From: Bacteroidetes bacterium UBA6221
GTDB lineage: Bacteria > Bacteroidota > Bacteroidia > Chitinophagales > Chitinophagaceae
Direction: 5' to 3'
Length of the DNA: 64,000 nucleotides
Assembly (NCBI GenBank): GCA_002421685.1
Contig: DISB01000016.1
Span: 378,549 to 442,548, forward strand
The notes under the pieces are model-generated. The model was not told the DNA's origin, did not search any database, and saw only the letters and a list, made by a program, of their open reading frames with translations. The position numbers were made by a program, and so were the translations under genes. This document shows positions 22-33,403 of this stretch, piece by piece. The first letter of the stretch is position 1; each line of letters starts with the position of its first letter.

Positions 22-3000
22 TTAAGGTTTAGATTTAGGTGCAGCCTCCTCAAAGTCCCCAGGGTCTGTATTATCATAGCTTCCAAACTTCAAAAATCCC
101 TCAGCTTGGACATTTAAACCCAAACCAAGCTTCGACCCAATACTTAAACCATGCTTCCTTATTTTTGTTCTTGCATTAAAGTCTTTCTCATCGCTTATCT
201 GATAGGAAATCCCCGGTATTCCCACTGAAAATAATGTAGTTGTTTCTACTTTTCTTTCGAAACCGTTTTCATCAACATATTCTTTTCTCTCAAACCCTCC
301 TCCAAGAAATAGGTCCCCATAAAGTGTGGTAGTAAACAAACGGGAATGCCCATCCGTGTTCCTGGACATACCTTCAACGTTCACTGCTTCAGTTCCCAAA
401 TTAAACCCTAAAACTGGTGTTTCTTTATATGCTCCACCTACCGAAAGACTTTTAAACCCAAAATGGAGTGATGGGCCAGCAGCTATACGGGCTGAACCCT
501 GAATACCCATACCATAGTCTTCTGTTTGTGGTATGTATTTGTACTTTGATTCTGTCTTCGATGCAGTTTGAGATTGTGGTGTTTGGGCTGCTTGTTTTTG
601 AATATCGCGAGAAATCCTTAACTGAACTACACTAATTCCATAATAAGCCGCTTCTGCCTTATCAGAAATAAACTCTAAACCTTCTAAATCTTTACCATCT
701 ATCACTCTATTCTCAGCAAAAGCATATGTACTGTTCCATGGATAAGACGCAGCTAAAGGATCAACACTCCAGAACCTTGCAATCCTGGTATCGTATTCCC
801 TGAATTTGTACTGGTAATGTACATTATACTTGCCCAGGTCTGCAGACTTTGATTTGTATATATCCTGCTCAGCCCTTTGAGTGTTATAGCCATATTTACC
901 GGGGTTGTCGTTATTCAGTATACGGCCAGGCATCTTCATGCCAAAAGGGTAATAATCGCTGACATCGGCCAGGTTGGGCTGCCAGTAGTCATACAAAGTG
1001 TCGCCGGAATTGGCCAGGTGCCCGCTTTTTCGGTCCTGTAGAGATACCAGCACATTACCGAGATGGTCCGTAATATGGAAGTGTTTCACACCTATTTTAC
1101 GGCCTGTGTAGCGTTCACCACTATACATATTGCCCCAGGGCTCGGATGCACCGGGGTATGTAAATACCAGGTCACCCAATCCCCTGCTATACCAGGGAAT
1201 ACGGGTAGTCAGTGCCCGATGTGGAGGCACATCTGGGTCATGGTGATAAGTATTCATTATACTGTCTGCAAGCCCATAGTTTTTCACGGCAAGTTTATCA
1301 GAGCCATAAATATGGTGCTCCGCCAGCATCAACGTATCTTCAGCCAGGGGCACATAACCGGGGCCATAAGCCGTGAGTTGGCCAAGCGTGCTATGTTGCA
1401 CAATTGCTTCAGCATAAGCAATGGGGTCTATACCTTCGGTATTGCAAATAGCTTTATCCAGTGTTGCAGCCGGGTCAGACGCATTGTTTACAAAATCAGT
1501 CAACACAACTCCTTTTAAGGCATTGTACAGTATAGTCAATTGTTCCAGCAATGTAACGTTATTATTGAGCAATGTAGGGCCATTAATCCACTGGTTGAAG
1601 AAGTCGAACACAGGGCCGGGGTGATTAGTATTGTACAGCGCGTTCAGAATCGCCTCTTCGAACACGGTAAACGGCCCTATGCTGTTAGGTGTAGGAGTCC
1701 TGAGGTTAGGTGATGAAAAAATAACAGGGTCAAATACAACCGCGTTCAGGAAATTCGCCGACATATTTTTGGGAGGCGGTTCATTATTAACAATTTGCAG
1801 TATCCTGTTTATGGCTTGTATTTCCTGGCCAGGCATCTGGCTTTCAATAGATGCAACATATGTTGCCATGTTAGTTGAATACGCCCCGCCAAGTCCTACA
1901 TCAGTCCACAAGTCCTGAAGTTCTGTAGGGCCCATTGTTTTAAAATAATGTTCAAATAGTTTCATGCGTTCACCTGAATAATCGAATATCTGATCCAGGA
2001 AAGGCATGAGGTTGCTATTCATCAGAGCAGCGGCAAACAGGTGCTCTGAGCTTTGCCCTACAGTCATATTCATGTCGAAAACCGCCATGTCATCCAGGTA
2101 ATCAACCGTTGCGAACAGCAGCCTGTGGAATACATCATTATCGTGCTGCATGTAGAAACCAGCGCCATAAGAGCCGGTAATATTAACCGCCCATGCATTT
2201 TCATTGGCTATTGCCAGGTCAATAAAGTTGGTGGCGAAGCTGCCATATATGTCTACGTTATCCAGGATGAACTGTATAAAATCCGGTTCGCCGTACAAAC
2301 CTTCATTGGCTTTTTTGATATACATGCATGGTGAAAGGTTGGTCTTTATATTGTAAGCAGTAAGGAGATTCCCTGAAGCATCGTACACATAATACTCGCC
2401 TTTATTTACAATCAGTTCCGCGCTTACAGTATCTATCACGTCTTTGCGCACCCTGTTGCCCAATCCGTCGTAATCATAATGTATGATAGTATTGGTAACA
2501 GTGTCTACGATATCGGTAATCTTGCCCAGGTGGTTCCATGAAACTTTCTGATTACCATAGTAATTACGTACCATATTCCCGGTATTGTCATATTCGTAAT
2601 TGATACTGTTAGCAGGTGTGTAAGGCTCCTGTTCCAGGTCGTGCGGAGCAGAAGTGTACCCGGCAATATTTTCATCAACTATATTCAGCCTGTTGGTACC
2701 CGATTCATAAGTATAGGTGAGACTATCCATATGATAGCTATAGTTATCATACCTGTTTAGTTCGGTTATATTACCGAGGGCATCATAATTATAGGTGTTT
2801 TTGAAAATATTGGACGGACTTGCAACTGACAAAAGGTCTTCGTCTACTTCAGCATATGCGGCTAACTTCAACCGCTGAACCTGGTCGTAACGGTAGTCGC
2901 GCTGGAGATTACCTACGGTATTCAACGATAGCGTTTGCCTGGGGATGTTGCCATTGTACATGCTCTTATTACCTTCGGGCAAGTACGTAGCAGCCACTGT

Positions 3001-9678: not shown

Positions 9679-9690
9679 ATTATGTCAGCT

Positions 9691-10404
9691 TTATTCGGTT
9701 ATTGTTAGTAGGTGATATCTTGCATATTTATGAGCTAATGAAAATTTTTCGTTTTCATGTTTAAAAAACCTGTCAGTCAAGATTTTTGACTTGTCAAATT
9801 GGTATTTAAAATCAGTAATACGGTAGATGCGGCTATAGCCAGCATTTTCTCCAAATTTATTTTTCTCCTCAACTTCAAACTCTATGCTTTTGATTAATAA
9901 AGTTTGTTTTTCAATTTCAACTGTAAACCCGGCGAAGTCGTGATTTCTGAAAACCACATCTATTTTGTGGTTCCCGTTTGGCAATATCTTAGAGCTGAAC
10001 GTGCCATGCTGCGCAATAATTGAATCGGATATATCTATAATATTGGGTTGAATTATATCGGAGGAAGATAAACCGAGCTTTTCCTTAAGTACTTCAATCG
10101 TCGAAACGGTTATTGTCCGGGATGGCATGTCTACTTTGCAGTAGTATTTCTTATTTACTATTGATATGGACGATGCATTACTGTCTATATAACCATCTGC
10201 ATTTTTGTAATACTGCCCGACTATGCTATCCTCAATCTTATTTTCAACTACATTTTTCAGGAACACTTTATAATTATATGCAAGAACAGGCTTGTCATTC
10301 GATTTTTTGATTTTATCGAATAAACTACTGGTAAATGTCTGTGCAGTCATATACTGAACACCCGACATAGCGATTAAACTGAGCAATAAGAGGTATTTTT
10401 TCAT
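9691..10404 (-). CDS. Secreted 237-aa protein of unknown function, encoded between the two giant genes
   Basis: ORF with signal-peptide-like N-terminus MKKYLLLLSLIAMSGVQYMTAQ. It starts 7 nt after the upstream stop and ends 12 nt before the RHS gene start. Confidence 0.8.
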   Translation of the reverse strand: MKKYLLLLSLIAMSGVQYMTAQTFTSSLFDKIKKSNDKPVLAYNYKVFLKNVVENKIEDSIVGQYYKNADGYIDSNASSISIVNKKYYCKVDMPSRTITVSTIEVLKEKLGLSSSDIIQPNIIDISDSIIAQHGTFSSKILPNGNHKIDVVFRNHDFAGFTVEIEKQTLLIKSIEFEVEEKNKFGENAGYSRIYRITDFKYQFDKSKILTDRFFKHENEKFSLAHKYARYHLLTITE

Positions 10405-10411
10405 GCTGTCA

Positions 10412-13400: not shown

Positions 13401-16400
13401 TTAGCTATTGTCAATAGCTCTGTGGCCGAGGCTTTTAATCCCTGCAATATTTGTATTGCGCCACCACCTCCACTATAACCGGGATAGATAATATGTGGCA
13501 GATAATGCCGGCCAATATTGAGTCCGTATATAGTAGCAGGGTGTAACAGATGATTGCTATTGCTTCCCGGACGCTCGCGTTTCAATCTTACGTAACCATA
13601 ATTATTGTCGTTGGAACATATGCCTACTTCTTCTATTTCCGCATATCCCTTTATGTGCTCGTACTTACCTTTGCCTGTTATATCCAGGTTAAAGCTATAA
13701 TATAATGTGTTTGTATTTTCAAGGTAATTGTCTTTCATAGACAGTGCCGAATTTTCACGGTCTATTCTTCTTTTGAAATAGACGTAGTTATTTACCTTGC
13801 TTACACTTTCATATAAATTCGCTTTTTGTTCAAAGTTTGCAGTATTACCCACGCCCTCAACTTTAAACATTTGCATACTCCGCTTGTTCTGAACATATGA
13901 ATAATCATCACTTTCATACTCTACGTGTATTTTACCTCCTGAGGGCAACTTTATATCAGTGAGCGACCACGCTCCCACATTAGCATCAGCACTACCATCC
14001 TGATTGACATATGGATACTCAAAACTGCCTAACCCTGAAAATAAAGGTTGATAATTACCCCACCTGTCTTTTAAAGCAAAATTGTATTGCGGATTTAACC
14101 CATTATATGAAAAGACGTATGGGCTGAGTAGATTCTTATTTGAACTTCCATATTTTATATAAATTCTTTCAAGAGTAAGCTTCCCGCCATCATAAGTATT
14201 CGCCTCGTTGCTATTAGGTGAAAAGGAGTTGGGTATCCCCTTACATAACCTGTAAGAATACCTGAAAATAACAGTTTTAATCGGTACTGCTGAATTACCG
14301 GACTCGTTTATATACCGGTCATGTTTATTGTACAACTTGATTGAGTCAAGTTTATACGAGCGTTGGTTTTCGGAACTTGACCCGGCATACATACCTCCTA
14401 CATCTACTGTACTACCTGATGGTAATATAGCGGCGGTCACACCCTTGCCATCTTCACGTTCAGAAGTATAGAACTCAGCGACATAGTTTTTTGTTTCGAT
14501 AGAGCGTATATGCCATATCTGCTTTGATCCAGCGATATAGCTCCCCTTATCATCATCTCCATCAGACCAAAAACCGGGATTGTATTGTGCAGAATCGGAA
14601 TTATACGGCGCACGCCACCTGTAATCATCGTGAGCACGTGTGTAATTTATCTTTGTAAAACTTCCCAGGTCATCATCAGTGGGCCCATCTCCCAATACAT
14701 CTACATAATCTTTAGAGAGTACTGAAGTCAGCAGGTAGCTATATGCGTATGCGGGTTTACCGGTATGAGAATAAAAATTCTCCTTACCCTTACTATTATT
14801 TTTCGTATCGTCTCCGTTATCAATCTTTACTAAACCATTAGCAAGGTTAGCGTTGCCTGATGACACATTGAAAGACACCTCGCGGGTAACATGGTTTAAA
14901 GCCGGAATACCGTAGATATACCGGCGTCCGTCCGGCAATGTCTGGGTAAACTCGGTAAGATGATGCGCCTTTGCCTGGTTAGCATTTGTACCATATCTAT
15001 TTTCTTCGGTAACAGCAGGATTGGAAAAAGGCTGTGACACTCCGTCACTAAAGCTGATGATTTTTTTATGCTGTGCAACGTCGTTCACATCAGCTTCGGC
15101 TGAAGTGATGAAAGAGAGTAAATTGGCCCTGGTTGTCCTATCTGTTGCACTACCTGTATATACATAACTATTCCCAAACTTTCCGGGCATTGAGCCGGCC
15201 CCTGCTCTCCCCTTTGTATACAAAGTATTTTCGTTTTCACCCAAGTAAAGTGCCTTCTCGTTAAACAGGCTGGTTGTCAGTTGTTGATTATTATAGGTCA
15301 ATTCACCTGCTTGCTTAAAATACACCTTTTCATATAAGCTACCGGTATCCTTTGCACGAAAAGGTAACATCTTCCAGGGGCCGGATTTATTCTCATTATC
15401 ATAAAAAGTCAAGTCAGTACCCAGCTCAAACAAGTTACCCAGACCGGCTTCTATTTTAACATCAAAACTTGTGCTTTTAGGAGGGTTAACAAACGGGTCG
15501 AAAACGGTGCCAATATCATTTCGGTATGGGCGGAACATGCCGCCTGTGCCCTGTCCGCTTATTGAATACACGTCGTATGTCATTGATGAAAGGGGGAGAT
15601 TTTTCAATGTATTATTGTAATACCCGTCATTATCACGGCTAAAATCCATAATACCTTCTTTAGGCGCATTTTCAGAATATAAGTACCCATACGCCTGCCT
15701 TGAACCATCTTGCCCGTACTTCAGCGTAGACTTCATAATACTTAAGTGTACATTAGGGAAAGCATAGAATATCTCTCCACCAAAACGTGTTTGAAACTGG
15801 AATGTTTTTTGCACACTTTCATTAGTAATCACCGGCACATAGTTCTGTAAACCTATAGGTATTGAAGAACCAAAAGACGCGCCTGCAATGCTCTGAGAGT
15901 GATACTTCCTCTCTACCTTATTAGTCTTCTCATTAAATCTTTCTCTCTTATATGATTGCGAGGCGCTGGCATTTATTCCGAATGACAAGTCTTTCAAACC
16001 CGTTCTTGAGTTGAAGCCTGTTCCTCCTGAAATTCCAATACCGGCTCCTACATCTTCGGTAATGGTCATAGGAATGCTCAACCCTGCATTCACGTCAATA
16101 TCAGCGCCCGACTGAGACCCGAGTCCGATATCAACACCGGCACTAGCAACAGGAGTAGATACAGTAACACCTGCATTAACACCCACACTCACCCCCTTGT
16201 AATTATTGAATGCGATATAGTTGCCTACACCAATAGATAAATTAATACCGTATTGGTTGGGATTGAAGCCAAACAACTCTGCAGAAACATTTGCACCAAC
16301 TGCTATGCGCCAATCAGTTTCTTCATTAATATTCAGTGTTTTTTCGACAGTTTCTCCATTATAATCATCTGGTAGGCCCCTTACAGAACGATTTATTTCT

Positions 16401-16693
16401 CCTGGATTGATATTCCAGCCTAAACCTACCCAACTTGCCTCTTGTTCTATTCCAACACCCGCATGATATGAAATATTAATCGGGAAACCCTCAACATCCA
16501 TTAACGGTATATTGTATGTGAAGTCCCCAGAAAACATATCTACCATATCCGTGGTACCTACAGGCTCAAAGCTTTGTACTTCCGGCGTAGACGGGCCACT
16601 GGTAAGCGCCAGTGCGTAATTAGGGAAAAACAATTGGTAGGTGAATGAAAGAAAAAGCACTTTTGCTGTTGTCTTTATGAGGGTCGTTTTCAT
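10412..16693 (-). CDS. Giant (2093 aa) secreted protein with an SpvB/TcB-type N-terminal domain, a Gly-rich segment, degenerate YD-like repeats and a C-terminal jelly-roll-like region plus a final YD repeat
   Basis: Signal-like N-terminus. FSGDFTYNIPLMDVEGFPINISYHAGVGIEQEASWVGLGWNINPGEINRSVRGLPDDYNGE matches the SpvB N-terminal consensus (GxxxYxIPI...LxLxY...GxGWxL...I.R....G.P.Y). Scattered YD-like repeats are present: TYKYQIDSKGKLDNQ, LLYDSETGAVLLT, LKYDVFSNAIEEVDATGKY, FYEYDQQGLLIRV. YFDDIRFVP lies near the C-terminus. Confidence 0.88.
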   Translation of the reverse strand: MKTTLIKTTAKVLFLSFTYQLFFPNYALALTSGPSTPEVQSFEPVGTTDMVDMFSGDFTYNIPLMDVEGFPINISYHAGVGIEQEASWVGLGWNINPGEINRSVRGLPDDYNGETVEKTLNINEETDWRIAVGANVSAELFGFNPNQYGINLSIGVGNYIAFNNYKGVSVGVNAGVTVSTPVASAGVDIGLGSQSGADIDVNAGLSIPMTITEDVGAGIGISGGTGFNSRTGLKDLSFGINASASQSYKRERFNEKTNKVERKYHSQSIAGASFGSSIPIGLQNYVPVITNESVQKTFQFQTRFGGEIFYAFPNVHLSIMKSTLKYGQDGSRQAYGYLYSENAPKEGIMDFSRDNDGYYNNTLKNLPLSSMTYDVYSISGQGTGGMFRPYRNDIGTVFDPFVNPPKSTSFDVKIEAGLGNLFELGTDLTFYDNENKSGPWKMLPFRAKDTGSLYEKVYFKQAGELTYNNQQLTTSLFNEKALYLGENENTLYTKGRAGAGSMPGKFGNSYVYTGSATDRTTRANLLSFITSAEADVNDVAQHKKIISFSDGVSQPFSNPAVTEENRYGTNANQAKAHHLTEFTQTLPDGRRYIYGIPALNHVTREVSFNVSSGNANLANGLVKIDNGDDTKNNSKGKENFYSHTGKPAYAYSYLLTSVLSKDYVDVLGDGPTDDDLGSFTKINYTRAHDDYRWRAPYNSDSAQYNPGFWSDGDDDKGSYIAGSKQIWHIRSIETKNYVAEFYTSEREDGKGVTAAILPSGSTVDVGGMYAGSSSENQRSYKLDSIKLYNKHDRYINESGNSAVPIKTVIFRYSYRLCKGIPNSFSPNSNEANTYDGGKLTLERIYIKYGSSNKNLLSPYVFSYNGLNPQYNFALKDRWGNYQPLFSGLGSFEYPYVNQDGSADANVGAWSLTDIKLPSGGKIHVEYESDDYSYVQNKRSMQMFKVEGVGNTANFEQKANLYESVSKVNNYVYFKRRIDRENSALSMKDNYLENTNTLYYSFNLDITGKGKYEHIKGYAEIEEVGICSNDNNYGYVRLKRERPGSNSNHLLHPATIYGLNIGRHYLPHIIYPGYSGGGGAIQILQGLKASATELLTIAKNPIVRFVEKDKKARSIITSKSWVRLNVPGLTKDGGGLRVKELTLNDNWSVLAGGADASYGKTYDYTEWDSKWDKNVSTGVASYEPMIGGDENPFKAPVPYTGSAGRLLPAIKFFQEEPFGESFFPPPVVGYSKITVRSIHIGNARSAQSEEEHTFYTAKEFPIEVDYTEKDAPSPVKTKTLRKKYEEVKAMQGYVLKFNDMHGKPKETSYYIIHTDGSNVKREKVSGMTYKYQIDSKGKLDNQVNAVVRTRGTAGGYTVQPIRLGEEMDFTIDSRERDIRAYRRNVDINVNVVLFVFVPIPIPTAFFPDKEEKTIFRSMVSTKIIQKYGILNSIETYDHGAKIKTENLLYDSETGAVLLTRTNNEYSSGSQFKGNYNLNIPAYWAYEGMQPAYTNIGYEEKADSLVIERHQLYDSYYGRLFLNRDRFTPGDELLLTYTENSVTHKVKAWVVDDEDNWKAHNPVNNTPSIQPFLPPGFYCYSYYEPYPRNRVQCDTVDSVDYVQTQPFRQVVLRALKDANGNVLWPGGLTTGSKVNDVFVKVLRSGRRNNLDQHVQSATLTSNPYTTSVSGLIDANAAYGKVLNLSVTEFSDVAAPYSSDYGDSQLITYGVYNPYIYPVSVTDKDMKIMNRYVLGHKGNYRPVKSYAYNANRDYSQGNISEDGTYSISGNEFWSYLVANRTVIDGIVPDNTSKWIAQSKILKYDVFSNAIEEVDATGKYSSAQYGYNKSLPVAVGSNVRQKGFCFEGFEDYNIMVPKYLRGLYQGSYYYFTPFAKAFNSVQSTVTRYKQDYVRLNLTASSGNTITSSESHTGTYSLYCSNNQDFDINVRSISPEIKDAGYNSPTPWVNTKNFSLDGARKYIVSLWLKATSGSAATVASNTKMILGGNQYPFQLKTGNIDGWYKAECEINMAGVWTGVAIRLPAGAYFDDIRFVPIDATVKSFVYDPASFKLIAEQDENNFSTFYEYDQQGLLIRVKKETEQGIVTISESRRSNQKK
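16363..16606 (-). other. SpvB/TcB-like N-terminal domain coding segment of the 2093-aa gene (about aa 30-110)
   Basis: Motif match described for the parent CDS. Coordinates were derived from the amino-acid index. Confidence 0.7.
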
Positions 16694-16700
16694 ACGGCTG

Positions 16701-17303
16701 CTATTTTATCACTAACGTGGGTAAATTTTTTAAAGTTTTTTTTGAATAAGTCGCTTGTATATATGGATTGTCATTGTACCGGTCATTAAAAACCAGTTTC
16801 AGGCCAGACTGTAATTCCGGCAGTTGAAAGCCCACCACAATGGTATTATATGGTGCAAGACCATAGTTATCTTCATAATGATATGTGGCAGGAAAAAACT
16901 GCTGTTCATCGCAGAAAAGCGATATGTCATTTGCTGCTAATGACTGGTAATACATTATCATTTCACCTGCTTTTTGCTTCTTCTGAATATCGTCAATCAC
17001 ACTTCCGCCAAGGTCATTTTTGGATACATTAATGATGAAAAAAATGTGCCCCTCTAATTCATTAATCCTGCTCTTTAATAGCTCTGTATTTGTATCTTGT
17101 AGTTGTTCACTATATTCTCTGCATGCCATGTAGTCAGCTGTAGCCAGCTGTATGATATACTCCGTATTTCCACTAATGATAGTCTGCCGGGTTGAGTTAT
17201 TGCTCTCCATGTATCTGAGATATTTTGCCGGCTGCAAATCACCACTTGTATTGCAGCTGAACAAATACATACATAAAAGCAGTAGTTTAATTACCTTTTG
17301 CAT
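16701..17303 (-). CDS. Lipoprotein (200 aa), unknown function
   Basis: Lipobox-like N-terminus MQKVIKLLLLCMYLFSC. The start overlaps the upstream Skp-like gene by 17 nt, and the stop lies 7 nt before the 2093-aa gene start. Confidence 0.8.
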   Translation of the reverse strand: MQKVIKLLLLCMYLFSCNTSGDLQPAKYLRYMESNNSTRQTIISGNTEYIIQLATADYMACREYSEQLQDTNTELLKSRINELEGHIFFIINVSKNDLGGSVIDDIQKKQKAGEMIMYYQSLAANDISLFCDEQQFFPATYHYEDNYGLAPYNTIVVGFQLPELQSGLKLVFNDRYNDNPYIQATYSKKTLKNLPTLVIK

Positions 17304-17793
17304 ATTTTTTGTTTACATAATCAGTTAAATCATCAGTCAGATCGCGCTTTTCATCTGCATATAACAATGATCCTGCACCATTAGCGCCAATTAGCAGCAT
17401 CAACTGTTTATCTTTCCCATATTGTTCAATAACTGGATTAAGTCTTTCCCAAATTTTTACGTTTATTTCCTTGTTCGACTTGGCATAATAGTCATTGAAA
17501 ACCTGCTGTGCATATATTACCTGGCTATCCAGGTGCGCATTATTCCCGACAACCTTTTGTAACATCTTCAGGCTATCTATGGCTTCACGTATTTTATATA
17601 GATTCTGGGCTGCGGCATTTTCGAGGTCTTTTTTGAATTCATAATTTTCGGCCAACCTGCCAATATCAATGTATGCTACGTCTTTTTTAGACATAAAATT
17701 CCCGATTGCATAAATTGCGAGCAGCAATACAGCTACGCATATTAAGTACAATAGCGCTTTATCCAGTTTATTAAATTTTACAGATTGGGTCAT
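17287..17793 (-). CDS. OmpH/Skp-family periplasmic chaperone-like protein (168 aa) with an N-terminal membrane anchor or uncleaved signal
   Basis: Hydrophobic segment ALLYLICVAVLLLAIYAIGNF. This is followed by VAYIDIGRL..., a long helical middle, and LMLLIGANGAGSLLYADEKRDLTDDLTDYVNKKY, which is typical of Bacteroidota OmpH-family C-termini (..vL......lLYad...DiT..v...lN). Confidence 0.75.
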   Translation of the reverse strand: MTQSVKFNKLDKALLYLICVAVLLLAIYAIGNFMSKKDVAYIDIGRLAENYEFKKDLENAAAQNLYKIREAIDSLKMLQKVVGNNAHLDSQVIYAQQVFNDYYAKSNKEINVKIWERLNPVIEQYGKDKQLMLLIGANGAGSLLYADEKRDLTDDLTDYVNKKYAKGN

Positions 17794-18932
17794 CTTACAA
17801 ATAATGGATTATAGTACATAAATGGAACGATAAATAACTCACCTTTTCTTGTTCTGATTTCTAGTTCATATTTAGACGTATGCTTAAGGTTTACACGATC
17901 ATGAAGTTTAATAGTAAACCAATTATAGCCATTCTTCATAGGCATTAGATTATCTTTCACAGGCACTTCATCTCCTTTTTCATTTAGTATCCTGATTGCC
18001 AATGTGTCGTTTGGTATATCACTCCTGTACTTCAATTTTATTTCCCCGGTTGCATTTAGCCGGGTGTCCCCAATGTGATTTTCAAACTCGTAATATGACT
18101 GATTTGCAACTACTTCTTTCAATAAAGTATCCTCAATAATTGTAAACCTCCATGGTTCGGCGCCACCTAGAAGTATATTTTTATAGTATGCATCCACAGT
18201 CCACACATAGGGTTGATATTTTTTCAAACTTCTTGCAGTAACAGGATACATCAGGCTGTATCCAATCAATCCTTTTTCCTGAAATATGGGATTGTTTCGT
18301 GTAATTGCTGAGATATTGTTCTGGTTTTCCTTGAGCTCTACAAGCCTTAGTTTGTAGTTTAATTGTGATGCAATAGGATGATTTACTACCCACGACAGCA
18401 TCGGGTTCATTTCATATATTTTTGCGTTATCTTCAGGATCAATCAGGTTAATAAGAAAGATATCACCTACCGTCTGGTATATACAACCGTCAAATAATGA
18501 TTCATTGTGGTTTTCAGAGTGTAATGTATTCAAGTCAATTTCTACACAATACTCATAAGTTCCCTGCGGCAATTTTTTGTGATATAAAAACAACTCTTTA
18601 AAAGCATTATCAGAAAAACTCCATTGGGGGCTATTAGCCTTTTCCTTTGACATCCTATTTACCCCGGGCTCTATAGTTGTCCTGTACGTGTAAGCAAAAC
18701 GTAACGACATATTTTTGTACTTTAGAGAACCTCTTACAACTGCCTCAATTCTTCGATTGCTGTTGTTCATTAACTGATAATTAAAGACGTTGTCCGGCGT
18801 TATCTCGAGCCCGTCCAGCAATGTCAAATCAACGACAATATTATATTGAGCTTCAGACCTGTATGGCAGACTACACAAAATCAGTGCATACAATAAAAAC
18901 TTTTTGCACCGGGATACAAGCAGAGTATTCAT
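17790..18932 (-). CDS. Secreted 380-aa protein, unknown function. It shares a beta-sandwich-like motif with the N-terminus of the 937-aa protein.
   Basis: Signal-like N-terminus MNTLLVSRCKKFLLYALILCSLPYRSEAQ. The stop overlaps the Skp-like start by 4 nt (ATGA). The motif AFKELFLYHKKLPQGTYEYCVEI resembles SFFELLKSTGEVPPGTYHMHVAL in the 937-aa protein. Confidence 0.8.
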   Translation of the reverse strand: MNTLLVSRCKKFLLYALILCSLPYRSEAQYNIVVDLTLLDGLEITPDNVFNYQLMNNSNRRIEAVVRGSLKYKNMSLRFAYTYRTTIEPGVNRMSKEKANSPQWSFSDNAFKELFLYHKKLPQGTYEYCVEIDLNTLHSENHNESLFDGCIYQTVGDIFLINLIDPEDNAKIYEMNPMLSWVVNHPIASQLNYKLRLVELKENQNNISAITRNNPIFQEKGLIGYSLMYPVTARSLKKYQPYVWTVDAYYKNILLGGAEPWRFTIIEDTLLKEVVANQSYYEFENHIGDTRLNATGEIKLKYRSDIPNDTLAIRILNEKGDEVPVKDNLMPMKNGYNWFTIKLHDRVNLKHTSKYELEIRTRKGELFIVPFMYYNPLFVR

Positions 18933-18955
18933 AAGATAATTTTTTAGGTCATTAA

Positions 18956-21769
18956 CTATTTAATTTTTTCACAATCTCTTTTCATCTTGAAATGCCAATC
19001 TATGCCTACCAAACCTGCCCATAAATTGTTCTTATCAGAATATAGATTGTGTGTAAAGTGAGTGTACCTGAACTGTAGTCTCAGCCCTATAGGTTTCGTT
19101 TCAAACAAGTATGCTAATCCGGCTGTTACAGATAACTTTTCTACACCGGTTTTACTCCATGCAATATCCGGTCCTCCGTTAACAGTAATATTCTTATTGA
19201 TGCTTTTACTAATGCTGTTATTGATAAAGTATAGGTCGCCGCTTAGGGAACTATCATTTGCAGGAATGCTCATCCAACCTGCATTTAGGCTGGTCATGTT
19301 CATTCCAGAGCTATATATATACCCCAACTGAACGGTTTTACTTTCGTAACTAACCAGTTCAGCGGTATTCTTGTTGTGGTTATACATGAGCATGAAACGA
19401 TGAGCTGATCTGCCTTTTCTAACCTGGTAAGTCAACCTGGATGTAGTAACCTCACCTATAATAGGCCTTTGCGAAATTGAAAAAGTATCATTAAATGCTC
19501 TGAAAGTAGTGAACGGCTTATACGACATGTATAAATTTGGATATCTCTTGAAATTAGTTTTAACATCGAAACCCCACCTCTTGTTATATCCTGTTGATGC
19601 AAATGAAGATTGTTTAATAAAGTTATATTGTACACCAAGAACAATTAAAGACTTGACAATAGTTGCATTAGCTCCTAAAGTGTACCTTTCTGTCGCGTTG
19701 CGTTTAATAGGCATGGCGCTATTCTCAAATAACTTTCCCATATGCTCCCACTCGCCCCTTATGGAAGAATTGACAGGTTTTACCAAGTATTCTGCGCCTA
19801 TTTTCGCCGCCGTTGTCTCTTTACCTGTTTGCCTTAGTTCCGACATTTTATTATAAGAGGTTGCCCCCTCTGATTGGATTAATAAATTATCACCAAATCG
19901 GCCGTTGTAAACAAATGACAAGACATGGACGGGCTCCATGAAAGATTGAGGGATAACGTCTTGTTTAAAATTTTCGCTTTTCAAAATGCTTTTTGCAGGC
20001 GAGTAGGTATAATATATTAAACCAACATTCTGCTGTTCATAAATTCTGGAATCGGCACGCAACATGTATGAATTATAAGCGTCAACATTGCCGTCCCGGG
20101 ATATATACTCAGTTTTACCAATGGTAGCGCGTGTTTTAACAAACCCAAAGTCATATCCCAATCCACCACCTTTCAGAACTTGCCCTGACATGGTATAATC
20201 GGATTCATACTGATTTAGAATCCCGATATCAAAATTAGTTACCCCCCTGATAAATTTTGATGTTTCGCTTTCAGGAAGCAAGTCCGATGTGGCATTAGCA
20301 AGTTCTTTATAGGAAGGATTGCGATTATTCAATTCATTCAACTTAGCATATGTAATGGCAGAATCGAGATACATTTTATTATTGTATTGCTCGAGTATTT
20401 TTGAATACTTTTCTATTCTTTGTTTGTTCTTTTCATATTTTTCGTACTGCTCTCTTGCTTTGGCCCTTTCATCATCAGCCAGACCAGACTTGACTACGTC
20501 AATACCAGGTAAAAGACGCTCACCATTCATTGTTTCGATATCAAAACCATACTTTTTCTGAAACAGGCTACGGATTGAGTAATTTTCAGAGTTCAGGCTA
20601 CTGATTAAATGTGTATACGAATCTCCCGCACCCATATTTTTTGTCTCGTTGTATTTTGCTTTGAAAACGGTAATTTTTTCCTGCAATCGGCTCTTAGACT
20701 CTTCAACATCATAATGTACTCTTATATAGCTCGCCTTTGCTTGTCTTCCTATATCCTGCGTGGTATAATAACCCTCCAGCACAACAGGTACATTTTTGAT
20801 TGTAGTATGTACAATCCCGCTTACCTCTTGATAAAAATTATCCTGTTGAGAGTTAGGTTCTTGTCCATTCCCAAAACCGGTTGAGAAGCCCAAATCACCA
20901 CGTGTTTCCTGATCGCAGTTGTCTTTCTTATAAAGTTTTTTTGTCCGGGAACTGATAGACGTGAAATTAGACAGGCTATTATCTTCTATCGAAAAGGCTT
21001 TGTTTTTCAAACTGGTTCTTTCATCTTCAATCTTATATTTCATTCCTGTTCCGGGTTTGACTTCGTACCTGCCTAAAAACCATTTATCAAAATACAAGGC
21101 ACTATAGGCTTTGTCATCTGTCATTTCAGGAACCGCAATCACACCTTTTTTATTCCCTATCTTTCTATTGATATGTGTGTTTATTCTTGTCAACTCCTCT
21201 TTTGACAGCCCATCTTTTTTTGCATTTCTGTTATTAATTCTTATACGTCCTTTTTTATGAGATGGCGCAAGAAGATTATTTATCCTGTTTCTTATATCTG
21301 AATTGTAGGATAATGTACTATCTATACCAACTGTAAAATCTTCAACATGAAATAAATCGCCGTACAAAGTAAATAGTGCGACATGCATGTGATAGGTACC
21401 CGGCGGTACTTCACCAGTACTTTTCAACAGTTCAAAAAAGGAATGATTTTTATATCTGGTAGTGTCGCTTTTTTCAAACTTAAGGGTTACAGAGTTTGCT
21501 CCGTTGTGAAATAATAACCTTTCAAAAAACAGGTGATACAATTCAACACTATCAGCGGTTCTCAGTTGGTAACATTGCACGCTTACATTCAGCCTAATTG
21601 TAGTGTCTAACTGATAACTGATTTTTTGAAAAATCTCATCATCTTCAATAAAGGGAATCTCAAGAGAAAAGATATGTGCATCATTCCTGCCTTGCCCAAA
21701 ACCCTTATGTACTGTTACAATGAGGCTAAGAGTAAAAATGGTGATGTATATATGTAATAGTTTTTTCAA
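18956..21769 (-). CDS. First gene of the operon: 937-aa signal-peptide protein with an N-terminal beta-sandwich-like domain, a central coiled coil and a beta-rich C-terminal half (putative outer-membrane barrel)
   Basis: N-terminus MKKLLHIYITIFTLSLIVTVHKGFGQ. Charged heptad-like stretch DDERAKAREQYEKYEKNKQRIEKYSKILEQYNNKMY. The C-terminal ~430 aa show alternating hydrophobic patterns with Y/F/W girdle-like residues (LSVTAGLAYLFETKPIGLRLQFRYTHF...WAGLVGIDWHF). Confidence 0.8.
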   Translation of the reverse strand: MKKLLHIYITIFTLSLIVTVHKGFGQGRNDAHIFSLEIPFIEDDEIFQKISYQLDTTIRLNVSVQCYQLRTADSVELYHLFFERLLFHNGANSVTLKFEKSDTTRYKNHSFFELLKSTGEVPPGTYHMHVALFTLYGDLFHVEDFTVGIDSTLSYNSDIRNRINNLLAPSHKKGRIRINNRNAKKDGLSKEELTRINTHINRKIGNKKGVIAVPEMTDDKAYSALYFDKWFLGRYEVKPGTGMKYKIEDERTSLKNKAFSIEDNSLSNFTSISSRTKKLYKKDNCDQETRGDLGFSTGFGNGQEPNSQQDNFYQEVSGIVHTTIKNVPVVLEGYYTTQDIGRQAKASYIRVHYDVEESKSRLQEKITVFKAKYNETKNMGAGDSYTHLISSLNSENYSIRSLFQKKYGFDIETMNGERLLPGIDVVKSGLADDERAKAREQYEKYEKNKQRIEKYSKILEQYNNKMYLDSAITYAKLNELNNRNPSYKELANATSDLLPESETSKFIRGVTNFDIGILNQYESDYTMSGQVLKGGGLGYDFGFVKTRATIGKTEYISRDGNVDAYNSYMLRADSRIYEQQNVGLIYYTYSPAKSILKSENFKQDVIPQSFMEPVHVLSFVYNGRFGDNLLIQSEGATSYNKMSELRQTGKETTAAKIGAEYLVKPVNSSIRGEWEHMGKLFENSAMPIKRNATERYTLGANATIVKSLIVLGVQYNFIKQSSFASTGYNKRWGFDVKTNFKRYPNLYMSYKPFTTFRAFNDTFSISQRPIIGEVTTSRLTYQVRKGRSAHRFMLMYNHNKNTAELVSYESKTVQLGYIYSSGMNMTSLNAGWMSIPANDSSLSGDLYFINNSISKSINKNITVNGGPDIAWSKTGVEKLSVTAGLAYLFETKPIGLRLQFRYTHFTHNLYSDKNNLWAGLVGIDWHFKMKRDCEKIK

Positions 21770-22133: not shown

Positions 22134-22163
22134 AAGGAGTTATACATGTGTGTATAACTCCTT
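22134..22163 (-). terminator. Perfect 13-bp-stem hairpin immediately 3' of tRNA-Leu, followed on the minus strand by ATTTATTTCG. Probable tRNA terminator.
   Basis: aaggagttataca-tgtg-tgtataactcctt read directly from the sequence. Confidence 0.55.
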
Positions 22164-22174
22164 GTAAGTCATTG

Positions 22175-22258
22175 TGCCCAGAACAGGAATCGAACCTGCA
22201 CTCCCTTGCGAGAACCAGATTTTGAGTCTAGCGCGTCTACCAATTCCGCCATCTGGGC
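22175..22258 (-). tRNA. tRNA-Leu (anticodon CAA), class II with a long variable arm. CCA is not encoded.
   Basis: The reverse complement reads GCCCAGATGGCGGAATTGGTAGACGCGCTAGACTCAAAATCTGG...GGTTCGATTCCTGTTCTGGGCA. The acceptor GCCCAGA pairs with TCTGGGC. The anticodon loop is CTCAAAA. Confidence 0.9.
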
Positions 22259-33310: not shown

Positions 33311-33403
33311 GGGGAGTATTGAGGCCTCTTGTACACAGTAAGCAGTCTAATTCATTAGACTAAGGCATGTTTTCTTTTATATTTGCCTACAAAGAATACC
33401 AAT

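What the first reader, a model, noticed from the sequence alone, without database searches (positions are those of the whole stretch)
22..21769. Seven-gene operon coupling two giant SpvB-N/YD-repeat proteins to a private envelope module: candidate undescribed RHS/Tc-like toxin export or delivery system
Seen directly: seven same-strand ORFs fill 21.7 kb. Junctions in transcription order are a 23-nt gap, a 4-nt overlap, a 17-nt overlap, then gaps of 7, 7 and 12 nt, so this is almost certainly one transcript with translational coupling. The order is:
- 937-aa signal-peptide protein (coiled coil plus beta-rich C-terminal half)
- 380-aa secreted protein
- Skp/OmpH-like chaperone
- lipoprotein
- 2093-aa protein with an SpvB/TcB-type N-terminal domain and degenerate YD repeats
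- 237-aa secreted protein
- 3218-aa RHS protein with core and variable tip

Every product has a Sec-type signal, an anchor or a lipobox. Neither giant protein ends in a T9SS sorting domain, although three T9SS cargo proteins elsewhere in the window show that the organism uses T9SS. By eye I find no Hcp/VgrG/PAAR/TssBC, no TcA-like translocator, and no obvious POTRA/TpsB.

Inference: the SpvB-N plus YD protein followed by an RHS-core protein resembles a TcB/TcC cocoon pair. The upstream beta-rich protein, Skp-like chaperone and lipoproteins could be a dedicated route for moving or anchoring it at the outer membrane. That combination is not a described secretion or delivery system as far as I know.
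Basis: partly seen in the sequence, partly recalled or inferred. Interest (0 to 1): 0.9.

Follow-up and report, generated by a model that had tools for sequence, protein, structure and literature searches.

The report
RHS toxin operon with envelope module
This is a seven-gene operon, conserved across the phylum Bacteroidota and apparently not described, in which a giant swappable-tip RHS toxin is always encoded with its own set of outer-membrane and periplasmic helper proteins; it may show how these bacteria export such toxins, which is still an open question.

Summary
The seven minus-strand ORFs and their junctions are exactly as reported.

**The toxin.** The last gene (3218 aa) is a real RHS polymorphic toxin:
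- It has YD repeats and an RHS core.
- Its family profile hits the solved structures Tse5, YenC2 and RhsA.
- The tip after residue ~3005 is swapped even in an ortholog that is 81% identical.
- A small two-TM immunity-like ORF lies just beyond the window.

**Conservation.** Relatives of the 2093-aa protein occur in at least 588 loci from Bacteroidota species genomes. In the 80 loci fetched, the block 380 / Skp-like / lipoprotein / 2093 / LolA-like / RHS stays colinear.

**What did not hold.** The TcB/TcC reading fails. The 2093-aa protein has no SpvB, TcB or RHS-shell signal by HMM, profile or Foldseek. Its model shows a 12-strand membrane-type β-barrel after an ultra-conserved N-terminal motif. 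It also has a CBM-like module and a single terminal YD hairpin.

**The other parts.**
- The 937-aa protein models as a 22–26-strand outer-membrane barrel.
- The 168-aa protein is Skp-like.
- The 237-aa protein belongs to the uncharacterised LolA3 family.
- No product has a T9SS sorting domain.

**New lead.** Sister loci that lack the 937-type barrel carry a co-operonic secretin/T2SS-like block in the same position.

**Best reading.** A dedicated Sec-dependent export or surface-display pathway for an antibacterial RHS toxin. This is inferred, not demonstrated.

The parts
18956..21769 (-). Gene 1. 937-aa Sec-signal protein, predicted to be a large outer-membrane beta-barrel. Layout: N-terminal beta-sandwich (aa 32-149, nt 21323-21676), 4 strands (aa 288-353), coiled-coil helices (aa 355-509, nt 20243-20707), then 22 strands (aa 510-930, nt 18980-20242).
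   Evidence: The AF2 model has mean pLDDT 70. Foldseek against PDB gives 291 hits at E<=1e-3 (the 50 listed are nearly all outer-membrane barrels): TonB-dependent transporters, MtrB 6r2q_B (TMt 0.44), LptD and the usher. There is no Pfam or NCBIfam hit. A homolog is present in 37 of 54 sister loci that have enough upstream sequence.
17790..18932 (-). Gene 2. 380-aa secreted Ig-like/beta-sandwich protein with an invariant Cys pair (C129, C150).
   Evidence: Alignment of 32 homologs. Weak Ig-domain hits in 8 of 32 members. Its N-terminus resembles the N-terminus of the 937-aa protein by hhalign (prob 85%, E 6e-6, signal peptide included). Present in 58 of 64 evaluable loci.
17287..17793 (-). Gene 3. 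168-aa membrane-anchored Skp/OmpH-like chaperone.
   Evidence: Pfam OmpH 33.6 bits against a cut-off of 32.4. The family profile hits E. coli Skp 1sg2 at 8e-8 and 1u2m at 3e-7, nearly full length. Present in 39 of 64 loci.
16701..17303 (-). Gene 4. 200-aa lipoprotein with lipobox LFSC (Cys17). It overlaps gene 3 by 17 nt.
   Evidence: Cys17 is the only invariant column in 30 homologs. No family or PDB match. Present in 49 of 64 loci.
10412..16693 (-). Gene 5. 2093-aa giant protein. Layout: signal peptide; ultra-conserved motif (aa 30-112, nt 16358-16606); predicted 12-strand amphipathic beta-barrel (aa 112-326, nt 15716-16360); large beta-rich region; CBM_4_9-like module (aa ~1901-2030, nt 10604-10993); terminal YD-like hairpin (aa 2036-2085, nt 10439-10588).
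   Evidence: More than 3444 homologs, all annotated 'hypothetical'. AF2 model of aa 1-1190 has pTM 0.70. Foldseek finds no TcB or Rhs match; the best (weak) hits are transmembrane barrels. The strands show strong dyad amphipathicity, 2.65 against 1.15 in control strands. CBM_4_9 is detected in 3 of 20 homologs and maps to aa 1901-2018. The YD hairpin comes from hhalign.
9691..10404 (-). Gene 6. 237-aa periplasmic LolA-like protein of the LolA3 family.
   Evidence: NCBIfam LolA3_fam gives a full-length match at 41.9 bits, below the cut-off of 83. 31 of 33 operon-linked homologs hit the model, best E 5.7e-59. Present in 58 of 63 loci. The function of LolA3 (Fjoh_0605) is unknown (PMC11885536).
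4099..9678 (-). Gene 7, N-terminal part. Signal peptide (aa 1-21) plus a ~1840-aa conserved region of unknown fold with 15 invariant cysteines.
   Evidence: Translation. Alignment A9 shows invariant Cys at 441, 633, 652, 720, 739, 751, 892, 897, 1040, 1042, 1138, 1187, 1391, 1447 and 1831. No PDB or Pfam match to this part.
664..4098 (-). Gene 7, RHS shell (aa ~1861-2904) and RHS-associated core (aa ~2905-3005, nt 664-966, ending ...VIDGKDLEGLE).
   Evidence: Eight YD motifs between aa 1917 and 2430. The family profile hits Tse5 at 1.6e-5, the YenC2 core at 1.7e-5, RhsA at 1e-3 and Tre23. The core aligns with 13 homologs. On the window protein alone, TIGR03696 scores 20.9 bits and PF05593 scores 16.1 bits, both below threshold.
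25..663 (-). Gene 7, polymorphic C-terminal tip (aa 3006-3218). Putative toxin domain of no known family.
   Evidence: BLASTP to the 81%-identical ortholog stops at ~aa 3005. Column identity falls from 0.44 to 0.09 at aa 3001. Tips of 13 homologs are unrelated. Only 2 relatives exist among 1.84 billion representatives.
22174..22258 (-). tRNA-Leu(CAA) immediately upstream of the operon. It marks the 5' boundary. The 404-nt AT-rich spacer (21770-22173) presumably holds the promoter.
   Evidence: ARAGORN and the sequence itself. Operon GC is 0.35-0.45 against 0.45-0.50 in the rest of the window.

Best explanation
The block is a Bacteroidota-specific, Sec-dependent RHS polymorphic-toxin system with its own envelope machinery.

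**Shown**
- The 3218-aa protein is an Rhs-type cocoon toxin with an exchangeable C-terminal tip, followed by a small immunity-like gene.
- It is almost always encoded with a 2093-aa giant protein, a LolA3-family periplasmic protein and a 380-aa Ig-like protein.
- It is usually also encoded with a Skp-like chaperone, a lipoprotein and a large outer-membrane barrel.

**Inferred mechanism**
1. All products cross the inner membrane through Sec.
2. The anchored Skp-like chaperone and LolA3 hold or escort the giant polypeptides and/or the lipoprotein across the periplasm.
3. The 937-aa 22-26-strand barrel is the outer-membrane conduit. Other lineages have a secretin/T2SS-like block in the same position.
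4. The 2093-aa protein is anchored in the outer membrane by its N-terminal 12-strand barrel. It displays a large surface region with a carbohydrate-binding-like module, and it docks or presents the RHS toxin to neighbouring cells.
5. The tip is then delivered as an antibacterial effector, and the producer is protected by the downstream two-TM protein.
For: **Operon structure**
- Seven same-strand ORFs with tight junctions.

**Conservation**
- At least 588 related loci in species-representative Bacteroidota genomes.
- The order is colinear in 80 fetched loci.
- Per-gene frequency: RHS 61/63, LolA3 58/63, 380-like 58/64, lipoprotein 49/64, Skp-like 39/64.

**RHS identity and polymorphism**
- Profile hits to Tse5, YenC2 and RhsA, a conserved core with unrelated tips, and a tip swap in an 81%-identical ortholog.
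- Homolog tips carry lysozyme, Hydrolase_2, Amidase_3, WHH, Colicin-DNase, Tox-REase-5 and Tox-MPTase3 domains.
- A small same-strand ORF starts within -3 to +17 nt of the RHS stop in 9 of 11 loci. In this organism it is an 89-aa two-TM protein.

**Envelope location**
- Signal peptides and a lipobox.
- Invariant cysteines in the RHS N-terminal region and in the 380-aa protein.
- The 937-aa model matches outer-membrane barrels.
- Skp homology.
- LolA3 family membership.
- A predicted amphipathic 12-strand barrel in the 2093-aa protein and a CBM_4_9-like module.

**Link to secretion**
- Of 54 evaluable loci, 37 have the 937-type barrel, 8 have a contiguous T2SSF/prepilin/T2SSE/secretin block instead, and none has both.

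**No known route fits**
- No T9SS C-terminal domain, PAAR/VgrG, TPS or Tc domains, although the T9SS domain model detects three other window proteins.

**Published background**
- Deleting lolA3 in F. johnsoniae affects neither gliding nor T9SS (PMC11885536). That fits a specialised role.
Against: - There is no experimental evidence for secretion, surface exposure or toxicity.
- Both AF2 models are only moderately confident (mean pLDDT ~70).
- The Foldseek matches for the 2093-aa barrel are weak (best E 6e-3). The matches for the 937-aa barrel are generic (TM 0.2-0.44).
- The 937-type loci encode no energy source or inner-membrane component.
- The barrel and the Skp-like and lipoprotein genes are missing from a sizeable minority of loci, so they are not strictly required.
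- The mutual exclusion of barrel and T2SS block is confounded by phylogeny and by the 10-kb flank limit.
- The window protein itself scores below the curated thresholds for RHS_repeat, Rhs_assc_core and LolA3_fam.
- The core motif reads DLEGLE rather than DPxGL, so autoproteolysis is not assured.
- The tip has no known toxin family, so its activity is unknown.
Confidence: 0.6

Rival explanations
1. Tc-toxin-like system. The 2093-aa protein would be a TcB-like half-cocoon with an SpvB N-terminal domain that pairs with the TcC-like RHS protein. The upstream barrel would stand in for TcA.
For: - The RHS core region aligns with the TcC protein YenC2.
- The N-terminal motif of the 2093-aa protein (FEPV...GDF.Y.IPL...Y.....G.GW.....I.R...G.P) resembles by eye the pattern at the start of SpvB/DUF6531 domains. 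One of 15 members gives DUF6531 at E=0.11.
- The 2093-aa protein ends in a YD-like hairpin.
- Apibacter Rhs proteins with SpvB/TcdB domains have been reported (PMC8125069).
Against: - No PF03534, TcdB_mid or RHS hit in the 2093-aa protein or in 20 homologs.
- No SpvB hit even at E<=10 on the isolated motif.
- No PDB TcB hit for the family profile (E<=1) or the motif profile (E<=10).
- Foldseek of aa 1-1190 finds no TcB, Rhs or teneurin structure.
- hhalign against the RHS family matches only the last 40 residues.
- The 3218-aa protein has a full-length shell of its own (~1100 aa).
- No TcA-like protein is present.
Confidence: 0.06
2. The RHS toxin leaves the cell by a general pathway encoded elsewhere: T9SS with a non-canonical signal, a T2SS, or outer-membrane vesicles. 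On this view the operon's accessory proteins are only folding, stabilising or anchoring factors and not a translocon.
For: - The organism has T9SS cargo.
- The literature speculates that Sec-dependent Bacteroidota toxins use T9SS (PMC7073777, PMC8125069).
- 937-type loci encode no ATPase or inner-membrane part.
- The barrel, Skp-like and lipoprotein genes are dispensable in some lineages.
- A Skp homolog appears in a solved F. johnsoniae complex that I recall to be the T9SS translocon (PDB 8gl8_G, hit).
- T2SS genes are co-operonic in some loci.
Against: - No T9SS C-terminal domain in either giant, although the model works on three neighbouring proteins.
- Strict colinearity and translational coupling of the accessory genes with the RHS gene across orders of Bacteroidota.
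- Two predicted outer-membrane barrels in the operon.
- The 937-type barrel and the secretin block occupy the same position and never co-occur.
Confidence: 0.22
3. The system is not primarily a toxin-delivery system. It would be a cell-surface adhesion, kin-recognition or envelope-architecture module built from giant teneurin-like/YD proteins, with tip variation serving recognition.
For: - A CBM-like module, and FN3/PA14 annotations in 2093-aa homologs.
- The window's tip has no toxin family and almost no relatives.
- Deleting lolA3 gave no gliding or T9SS phenotype in F. johnsoniae (PMC11885536).
Against: - Homolog tips are bona fide toxin or lytic domains: lysozyme, amidase, HNH/WHH and colicin DNases, metallopeptidase.
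- Tightly coupled small downstream ORFs in 9 of 11 loci.
- A classic RHS core boundary for tip exchange.
Confidence: 0.08
4. The seven genes are a fortuitous juxtaposition, or a recently acquired island whose genes are functionally unrelated.
For: The block has lower GC than its flanks and sits directly 3' of tRNA-Leu.
Against: - The same order occurs in dozens of genomes from different orders.
- Gene junctions are overlapping or at most 23 nt.
- No integrase, and no tRNA-derived repeat at the far end.
Confidence: 0.02

Closest known systems
Rhs/YD-repeat polymorphic toxins (T6SS effectors such as P. aeruginosa Tse5, P. protegens RhsA, Photorhabdus Tre23)
   Same: YD-repeat shell, an RHS-associated core marking the boundary to an exchangeable C-terminal toxin, and a downstream immunity gene. 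The family profile hits these structures.
   Different: - A Sec signal peptide replaces PAAR/VgrG-linked N-termini.
- A ~1840-aa cysteine-rich N-terminal region of unknown fold.
- No T6SS genes in the operon.
- A conserved set of envelope accessory genes.
Tc toxin TcB-TcC cocoon (e.g. YenB/YenC2, TcdB2-TccC3)
   Same: The RHS core of the 3218-aa protein aligns with YenC2. Two giant proteins are encoded close together.
   Different: - The 2093-aa protein lacks the SpvB, TcdB_mid, beta-propeller and RHS shell.
- There is no TcA.
- All proteins are Sec-exported. To my knowledge, Tc subunits lack signal peptides.
Two-partner secretion / contact-dependent inhibition (CdiB-CdiA, T5b)
   Same: The logic is the same: a Sec-exported giant polymorphic toxin, a dedicated outer-membrane barrel encoded next to it, an immunity gene downstream, and reliance on periplasmic chaperones.
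   Different: - No Omp85/POTRA barrel, TPS domain or FHA repeats.
- The barrel is far larger (22-26 strands).
- Additional giant protein, LolA-like protein and lipoprotein.
TANFOR-domain polymorphic toxins of Bacteroidetes (Jana, Salomon & Bosis 2020, PMC7073777)
   Same: Large Sec-signal polymorphic toxins in Bacteroidetes whose export route is unknown.
   Different: - No TANFOR-type hit in the NCBIfam or Pfam scans.
- TANFOR neighbourhoods are enriched in T9SS/SprB genes, not in this accessory module.
Type II secretion / type IV pilus-like machines (secretin, GspE/PilB ATPase, GspF/PilC platform, pseudopilins)
   Same: In 8 sister loci such a block is contiguous with the Skp-like/lipoprotein/giant/LolA3/RHS genes, in the position that the 937-aa barrel gene occupies here.
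   Different: No such genes occur anywhere in this 64-kb window. The 937-aa protein is a monomeric-type barrel, not a secretin.
Inverse autotransporters (T5e, intimin/invasin)
   Same: The predicted topology of the 2093-aa protein: signal peptide, N-terminal 12-strand barrel, then a very large C-terminal region with adhesin-like modules.
   Different: - No IAT_beta or LysM sequence signal.
- An 80-aa ultra-conserved motif precedes the barrel.
- The barrel assignment rests on a moderate-confidence model.
LolA3 (Fjoh_0605) and Skp
   Same: The 237-aa family matches NCBIfam LolA3_fam. The 168-aa family matches Skp structures.
   Different: Both are private, operon-embedded paralogs. LolA3 has no assigned function, and its deletion has no gliding or T9SS phenotype (PMC11885536). 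The Skp-like protein keeps an N-terminal membrane anchor.

Membership tests
Rhs/YD polymorphic toxin (3218-aa protein) | YD/RHS repeats forming a shell | tested here: met
   - Eight YD motifs at aa 1917-2430.
- Family profile hits Tse5 1.6e-5, RhsA 1e-3, Tre23 1.3e-3.
- Many homologs carry PF05593.
- The window protein alone scores only 16.1 bits against GA 22.
Rhs/YD polymorphic toxin (3218-aa protein) | RHS-associated core (TIGR03696) with the DPxGL-type cleavage motif | tested here: inconclusive
   - The core aligns with 13 homologs and with the YenC2 core at 1.7e-5.
- TIGR03696 scores 20.9 bits, below the cut-off of 32.5.
- The motif reads DGKDLEGLE, not DPxGL.
Rhs/YD polymorphic toxin (3218-aa protein) | Variable C-terminal toxin after the core, with a cognate immunity gene downstream | tested here: met
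   - Tip swap at aa ~3005.
- Toxin Pfams in homolog tips.
- A small coupled ORF in 9 of 11 loci; here it is an 89-aa two-TM ORF.
- Toxicity and immunity were not tested.
Tc toxin TcB (2093-aa protein) | SpvB N-terminal domain (PF03534) | tested here: not met
   - No hit at E<=0.1 on the protein or at E<=0.01 on 20 homologs.
- No hit at E<=10 on the isolated motif of 15 members.
- No PDB TcB hit at E<=10.
Tc toxin TcB (2093-aa protein) | TcdB middle domains, beta-propeller and an RHS half-shell | tested here: not met
   - No Pfam hit.
- Foldseek of aa 1-1190 finds no Tc, Rhs or teneurin structure.
- hhalign against the RHS family matches only aa 2029-2072.
- aa 1190-2093 was not modelled.
Tc toxin complex | TcA translocator encoded with TcB and TcC | tested here: not met
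   None of the seven products matches any Tc family in Pfam or NCBIfam.
T9SS cargo | C-terminal sorting domain (PF18962 / TIGR04183 / type B) | tested here: not met
   No hit in any of the seven proteins at E<=0.1. As a positive control, three other window proteins score 32.9-40.5 bits.
T6SS Rhs effector | PAAR/VgrG/Hcp-linked N-terminus or adjacent T6SS genes | tested here: not met
   No such domains in the operon products, and all have Sec signals. The rest of the genome is not available.
Two-partner secretion (T5b/CDI) | Omp85-type TpsB barrel with POTRA domains, and a TPS domain in the cargo | tested here: not met
   No Bac_surface_Ag, ShlB, POTRA or Haemagg_act hits. None of the 13 homologs of the 937-aa protein has any Pfam domain.
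Outer-membrane beta-barrel (937-aa protein) | Closed antiparallel barrel of membrane-spanning strands | tested here: inconclusive
   - 22-26 strands in an AF2 model of pLDDT 70.
- Foldseek finds 291 hits at E<=1e-3, with barrels dominating the list but at low TM (0.2-0.44).
- A dyad-hydrophobicity test did not discriminate.
Inverse autotransporter (T5e) (2093-aa protein) | N-terminal 12-strand IAT beta-barrel followed by a passenger | tested here: inconclusive
   - 12 hairpin strands at aa 112-326 with strong dyad amphipathicity.
- Weak Foldseek hits to OmpT and autotransporter barrels, best E 6e-3.
- No IAT_beta Pfam hit.
Skp/OmpH chaperone (168-aa protein) | OmpH domain (PF03938) and similarity to solved Skp | tested here: met
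   33.6 bits against GA 32.4. The family profile against 1sg2 gives 8e-8 over aa 30-159.
LolA3 family (NF053579) (237-aa protein) | Full-length match above the curated cut-off | tested here: inconclusive
   The window protein scores 41.9 bits against a cut-off of 83, but the match is full length (1-232 of 232). 31 of 33 operon-linked homologs match, best E 5.7e-59.
Type II secretion system | Secretin, GspE-type ATPase, GspF platform and pseudopilins | tested here: not met
   Absent from the whole window. Present and contiguous in 8 sister loci.

The most novel reading that the evidence does not exclude
The accessory genes make up a previously unrecognised, Bacteroidota-specific outer-membrane export and delivery pathway for Sec-dependent Rhs toxins. 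Its core would be the 380-like protein, the 2093-aa barrel-anchored giant and LolA3. It would have two interchangeable outer-membrane gates in different lineages: a 22-26-strand monomeric barrel or a secretin/T2SS-like machine. In effect it would be a new secretion-system type, and it would give the orphan LolA3 paralog its function.
Probability: 0.4. Interest if true: 0.9.

Novelty: new variant of a known kind. Interest (0 to 1): 0.75.

Why it matters
- **An open question becomes testable.** How Sec-dependent Rhs and other polymorphic toxins of Bacteroidota leave the cell is not known. The held literature only speculates about T9SS (PMC7073777, PMC8125069). This operon names concrete candidate parts: two outer-membrane barrels, a private Skp, LolA3, a lipoprotein and an Ig-like protein. 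These are conserved with the toxin in hundreds of species, so deletion and competition assays can address the question directly.
- **LolA3 gets a context.** It gives a genomic context, and therefore a hypothesis, for LolA3. That protein has been named and deleted in F. johnsoniae, and a paralog has been crystallised in P. gingivalis, but no function has been assigned (PMC11885536, PMC13103446).
- **Possible new role for T2SS-like machines.** The secretin/T2SS-like block in sister loci hints at an unrecognised role for these machines in Bacteroidota interbacterial antagonism.
- **Large uncharacterised families.** The 2093-aa family has more than 3400 members, all annotated 'hypothetical'. Together with the 1840-aa RHS N-terminal region, it is sequence space with no solved relative.

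Tried and rejected
**SpvB/TcB identity of the 2093-aa protein: rejected**
- Pfam and NCBIfam on the protein and on 20 homologs.
- The isolated motif at E<=10.
- PDB profile searches.
- AF2 plus Foldseek.
- hhalign against the RHS family.
- At most, a motif-level resemblance remains.

**PDB profile searches for the small proteins**
- The 237-, 380- and 200-aa families gave nothing significant.

**TANFOR class**
- Considered and set aside. There is no hit, and TANFOR neighbourhoods are different.

**Genomic-island hypothesis**
- tRNA-Leu adjacency and low GC were noted, but there is no tRNA-derived repeat at the far end and no integrase.

**Dyad-hydrophobicity test on the 937-aa barrel**
- It did not discriminate barrel strands from beta-sandwich strands. 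I therefore treat the same test on the 2093-aa barrel as supportive only.

**Toxin tip**
- The whole-library search found only 2 relatives, so no toxin class could be assigned.

**Promoters and terminators**
- The sigma-70 and terminator scan was uninformative: counts were near shuffle expectation, and Bacteroidota promoters are not covered.

**Literature**
- No paper was found for Fjoh_0601-0606 other than lolA3, for DUF6443, or for any Rhs-Skp-LolA-secretin link.
- Kharade & McBride 2015 could not be retrieved by DOI or PMID.

**'380-like' expansions of 700-1290 aa in some loci**
- I checked whether they are fusions with the 937-aa barrel. They are not.

Full report

The ORF listing returns seven minus-strand ORFs at exactly the coordinates given:

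| Gene | Coordinates | Length |
|---|---|---|
| 1 | 18956-21769 | 937 aa, TTG start |
| 2 | 17790-18932 | 380 aa |
| 3 | 17287-17793 | 168 aa |
| 4 | 16701-17303 | 200 aa |
| 5 | 10412-16693 | 2093 aa |
| 6 | 9691-10404 | 237 aa |
| 7 | 22-9678 | 3218 aa |

The junctions (+23, -4, -17, +7, +7, +12 nt) follow from these coordinates. Independent gene calls on metagenome contigs that carry the identical proteins give the same genes. The only difference is that some callers start the lipoprotein 11 codons later.

The N-termini read as Sec signals. The 168-aa protein has an uncleaved hydrophobic anchor. The 200-aa protein has the lipobox LFSC, and Cys17 is the only invariant column among 30 homologs, which favours the longer, overlapping start.

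GC is 0.35-0.45 in the block against 0.45-0.50 in the rest of the window. A tRNA-Leu(CAA) gene (22174-22258, minus strand) lies directly upstream.

**2. The RHS protein**

Alone, the 3218-aa protein scores below threshold for RHS_repeat (16.1 bits against 22) and for the Rhs-associated core (20.9 bits against 32.5). The family evidence is clear:
- Eight YD motifs lie between aa 1917 and 2430.
- A 20-sequence family profile hits the solved Rhs proteins Tse5 (1.6e-5), RhsA (1e-3) and Tre23 (1.3e-3). It also hits the core of the TcC protein YenC2 (1.7e-5).
- In an alignment with 13 complete homologs, the core (DYYPFG...YRFGFNG...RFWSVDPL...NxPIxxxDxDGxE) is conserved and everything after it is unrelated.
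- BLASTP against an ortholog that is 81% identical over 2997 columns stops at about residue 3005.
- Mean column identity falls from 0.44 to 0.09 at that point.

Homolog tips carry phage lysozyme, Hydrolase_2, Amidase_3, PT-HINT, WHH, Colicin-DNase, Tox-REase-5 and Tox-MPTase3 domains. That repertoire is mostly antibacterial.

A small same-strand ORF begins within -3 to +17 nt of the RHS stop in 9 of the 11 loci with room to see it. For this organism, a longer contig shows an 89-aa protein with two hydrophobic segments 36 nt downstream, just outside the window. It is followed by a convergent miaA.

The window's own tip (aa 3006-3218) has only two relatives among 1.84 billion representative proteins, so its activity is unknown.

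The 1840-aa N-terminal region has no Pfam or PDB relative. It has 15 invariant cysteines, which fits folding outside the cytoplasm.

**3. The 2093-aa protein is not TcB-like**

It has more than 3444 homologs, all unannotated, and the tests for Tc or RHS identity all failed:
- No Pfam or NCBIfam hit.
- A family profile finds nothing in the PDB at E<=1.
Even so, 15 isolated copies give no SpvB hit at E<=10. They give only one DUF6531 hit at E=0.11, and no PDB hit at E<=10.
- An AF2 model of aa 1-1190 (64-sequence alignment, pTM 0.70, mean pLDDT 69.7) matches no Tc, Rhs or teneurin structure.

What the model does show:
- That same motif is modelled with pLDDT below 50.
- Twelve long hairpin-connected strands follow at aa 112-326, then a well-predicted beta-rich region.
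- No Foldseek hit reaches E<=1e-3. The best are transmembrane barrels: a designed 10-strand barrel (prob 0.99), OmpT/Pla, the autotransporter beta-domains EspP, BrkA and Hbp, OmpG and KdgM.
- The strands at aa 125-228 have a strong alternating hydrophobic/polar pattern across the family. The mean face difference is 2.65 Kyte-Doolittle units, against 1.15 for later strands.

Elsewhere in the protein:
- hhalign against the RHS family matches only aa 2029-2072, a single YD-like hairpin (E 0.05-0.3).
- Three of 20 homologs carry CBM_4_9 (32.3 bits). The domain maps to aa 1901-2018 of the window protein, just before the DDIRFVP motif.
- Database names of two homologs mention FN3 and PA14 domains.

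My reading is an outer-membrane-anchored giant surface protein with an adhesin-like C-terminal part. The barrel assignment is an inference from a moderate-confidence model.

**4. The smaller products**

*937-aa protein.* The AF2 model (13 sequences, pLDDT 70) shows:
- an N-terminal beta-sandwich (aa 32-149);
- four strands (aa 288-353);
- long helices (aa 355-509);
- 22 strands (aa 510-930).

Foldseek gives 291 PDB hits at E<=1e-3; the 50 listed are nearly all outer-membrane barrels. They include 22-strand TonB-dependent transporters, 26-strand MtrB (TMt 0.44) and LptD, and the usher. The TM-scores are low. It has no POTRA, Omp85, FadL, PorV or secretin signature.

*380-aa protein.* It is Ig-like: 8 of 32 homologs weakly hit an Ig domain, and it has an invariant Cys pair. 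Its N-terminus resembles that of the 937-aa protein (hhalign 85%, E 6e-6, signal peptide included).

*168-aa protein.* This family is Skp: Pfam is at threshold, and the profile hits E. coli Skp at 8e-8 over nearly the full length. It also hits the Skp chain of entry 8gl8, which I recall to be a F. johnsoniae T9SS complex.

*237-aa protein.* This family is NCBI's LolA3 family: 31 of 33 operon-linked members hit it, best E 5.7e-59. The window protein scores 41.9 bits, full length but below the cut-off. LolA3 is Fjoh_0605 of F. johnsoniae. Its deletion affects neither gliding nor T9SS, and its role is unknown (PMC11885536). The P. gingivalis 'LolA3' does not bind LolB (PMC13103446).

*200-aa lipoprotein.* It has no relatives outside these loci.

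**5. Conservation**

They span Chitinophagales, Sphingobacteriales, Flavobacteriales and Bacteroidales.

In the 80 fetched loci I called ORFs and searched them with phmmer and iterated HMMs. The order 937 - 380 - 168 - 200 - 2093 - 237 - 3218 is kept. Frequencies among evaluable loci:

| Gene | Present in |
|---|---|
| RHS | 61/63 |
| LolA3 | 58/63 |
| 380-like | 58/64 |
| Lipoprotein | 49/64 |
| Skp-like | 39/64 |

In some lineages the 2093-aa gene is split or followed by a second giant gene. In some, the 380-like gene is expanded to 700-1290 aa by inserted domains rather than by fusion with the barrel.

**6. An unexpected link to secretion**

In Tenacibaculum (L069), the genes immediately upstream of the Skp-like gene lie on the same strand with a 1-nt gap. 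They encode:
- a GspF/PilC-type platform protein (140 bits);
- a prepilin-type protein (MKRNKVKGYTILELL...);
- a GspE/PilB-type ATPase (403 bits);
- a secretin with an STN domain (121 bits);
- three small bitopic proteins.

The same block occurs in 8 of the 54 loci that have at least 8 kb of upstream sequence. Another 37 have the 937-type barrel instead, none has both, and 9 show neither within reach. The window contains no such genes.

So the 937-aa barrel gene occupies the position where other lineages have a complete secretin-based machine. This is the strongest indirect argument that it is an outer-membrane gate. Phylogenetic non-independence and the 10-kb flank limit weaken the statistics.

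**7. What it most likely is**

*Shown.* This is a phylum-wide operon that couples a Sec-dependent RHS polymorphic toxin, with an immunity-like gene, to a fixed set of envelope proteins.

*Inferred mechanism* (overall confidence about 0.6):
1. All products are exported through Sec.
2. The anchored Skp-like protein and LolA3 chaperone them across the periplasm.
3. They pass or dock at an outer-membrane gate. Here that is the 937-aa barrel; elsewhere it is a secretin.
4. The barrel-anchored 2093-aa protein displays or docks the toxin at the surface.
5. The tip is delivered to neighbouring bacteria.

*Rivals.*
- Export by a general pathway, with the accessory genes acting only as helpers (0.22).
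- An adhesion or recognition role (0.08).
- The Tc model (0.06).
- Chance juxtaposition (0.02).

**8. Comparison with known systems, and novelty**

The toxin is a new member of the Rhs family. The system follows the logic of CDI/two-partner secretion or T6SS-Rhs loci: a giant polymorphic toxin, an immunity gene and dedicated export parts. It shares none of their defining components (see the membership table).

Searches of the held literature found no description of this gene set. Two papers explicitly leave the export route of Sec-dependent Bacteroidota toxins open and speculate about T9SS (PMC7073777, PMC8125069). The operon proteins lack the T9SS sorting domain, although the same model detects three other proteins in this window.

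I therefore rate it a new variant of a known kind. I give a 0.4 chance that it is a genuinely new outer-membrane export pathway.

**Limits**
- No experiment has been done.
- Both structure models are of moderate confidence.
- aa 1190-2093 of the 2093-aa protein and the RHS N-terminal region were not modelled.
- Only 80 of at least 588 loci were examined, with 10-kb flanks.
- The rest of this organism's genome is not available.

Noticed in passing
L087:15693-15962 (just beyond window position 1, downstream of the RHS stop): An eighth gene: an 89-aa ORF 36 nt after the RHS stop, with two hydrophobic segments. It is a candidate immunity protein and is followed by a convergent miaA. The window cuts the operon one gene short.
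   Followed up: partly
L069:651-8674, and L027, L044, L045, L063, L081, L082, L083: In 8 sister loci a T2SS/T4P-like block sits directly upstream of, and contiguous with, the Skp-like/lipoprotein/giant/LolA3/RHS genes. The block contains a GspF-type platform, a prepilin-type protein, a GspE-type ATPase, an STN-secretin and three bitopic proteins. It never co-occurs with the 937-type barrel.
   Followed up: partly
window 22174-22258 (-) and 21770-22173: tRNA-Leu(CAA) lies immediately 5' of the operon, and a hairpin follows the tRNA. The 21.7-kb block has lower GC than its flanks (0.35-0.45 against 0.45-0.50). No tRNA-derived direct repeat was found at the far end, and no integrase.
   Followed up: partly
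window 33383-35122 (+), 35991-36869 (-), 37744-39789 (+): Three proteins with a Por_Secre_tail T9SS sorting domain. One also has a Reeler domain and one has DUF2341 plus an Ig domain. They confirm that the organism uses T9SS, and they served as the positive control.
   Followed up: yes
window 16358-16606 (aa 30-112 of the 2093-aa protein): This stretch has 80% column identity across the family and defined the patterns that retrieved all 588 loci. It is nevertheless modelled with pLDDT below 50. It may be a partner-binding segment. Its partner is unknown.
   Followed up: partly
L005:12567-14913 (metagenome contig SRR33371500_111883): A near-identical operon from another sample carries a 3200-aa RHS variant with an Amidase_3 hit in place of the window's tip. 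This is a within-species example of tip exchange.
   Followed up: no
L049:26489-27160: A second, short RHS-like fragment lies downstream of the complete RHS gene and its small ORF. It looks like an orphan tip/immunity cassette, as in classical rhs loci.
   Followed up: no
L075:15657-23192, L069:16126-19602: In Flavobacteriaceae-type loci a second giant gene (up to ~2500 aa) lies between the first giant and LolA3. It resembles only the C-terminal part of the 2093-aa protein.
   Followed up: no
window 1000-2400 (aa ~2440-2880 of the RHS protein): A ~430-aa, helix-looking, poorly conserved insertion (column identity 0.18-0.20) interrupts the RHS shell between the last YD repeats and the core. Its position, inside or outside the cocoon, is unknown.
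   Followed up: no
window 58833-62868: A GH15/trehalase-like gene lies next to a fused trehalose-6-phosphate synthase/phosphatase gene. A type III glutamine synthetase is at 29736-31946. These are ordinary housekeeping context.
   Followed up: no
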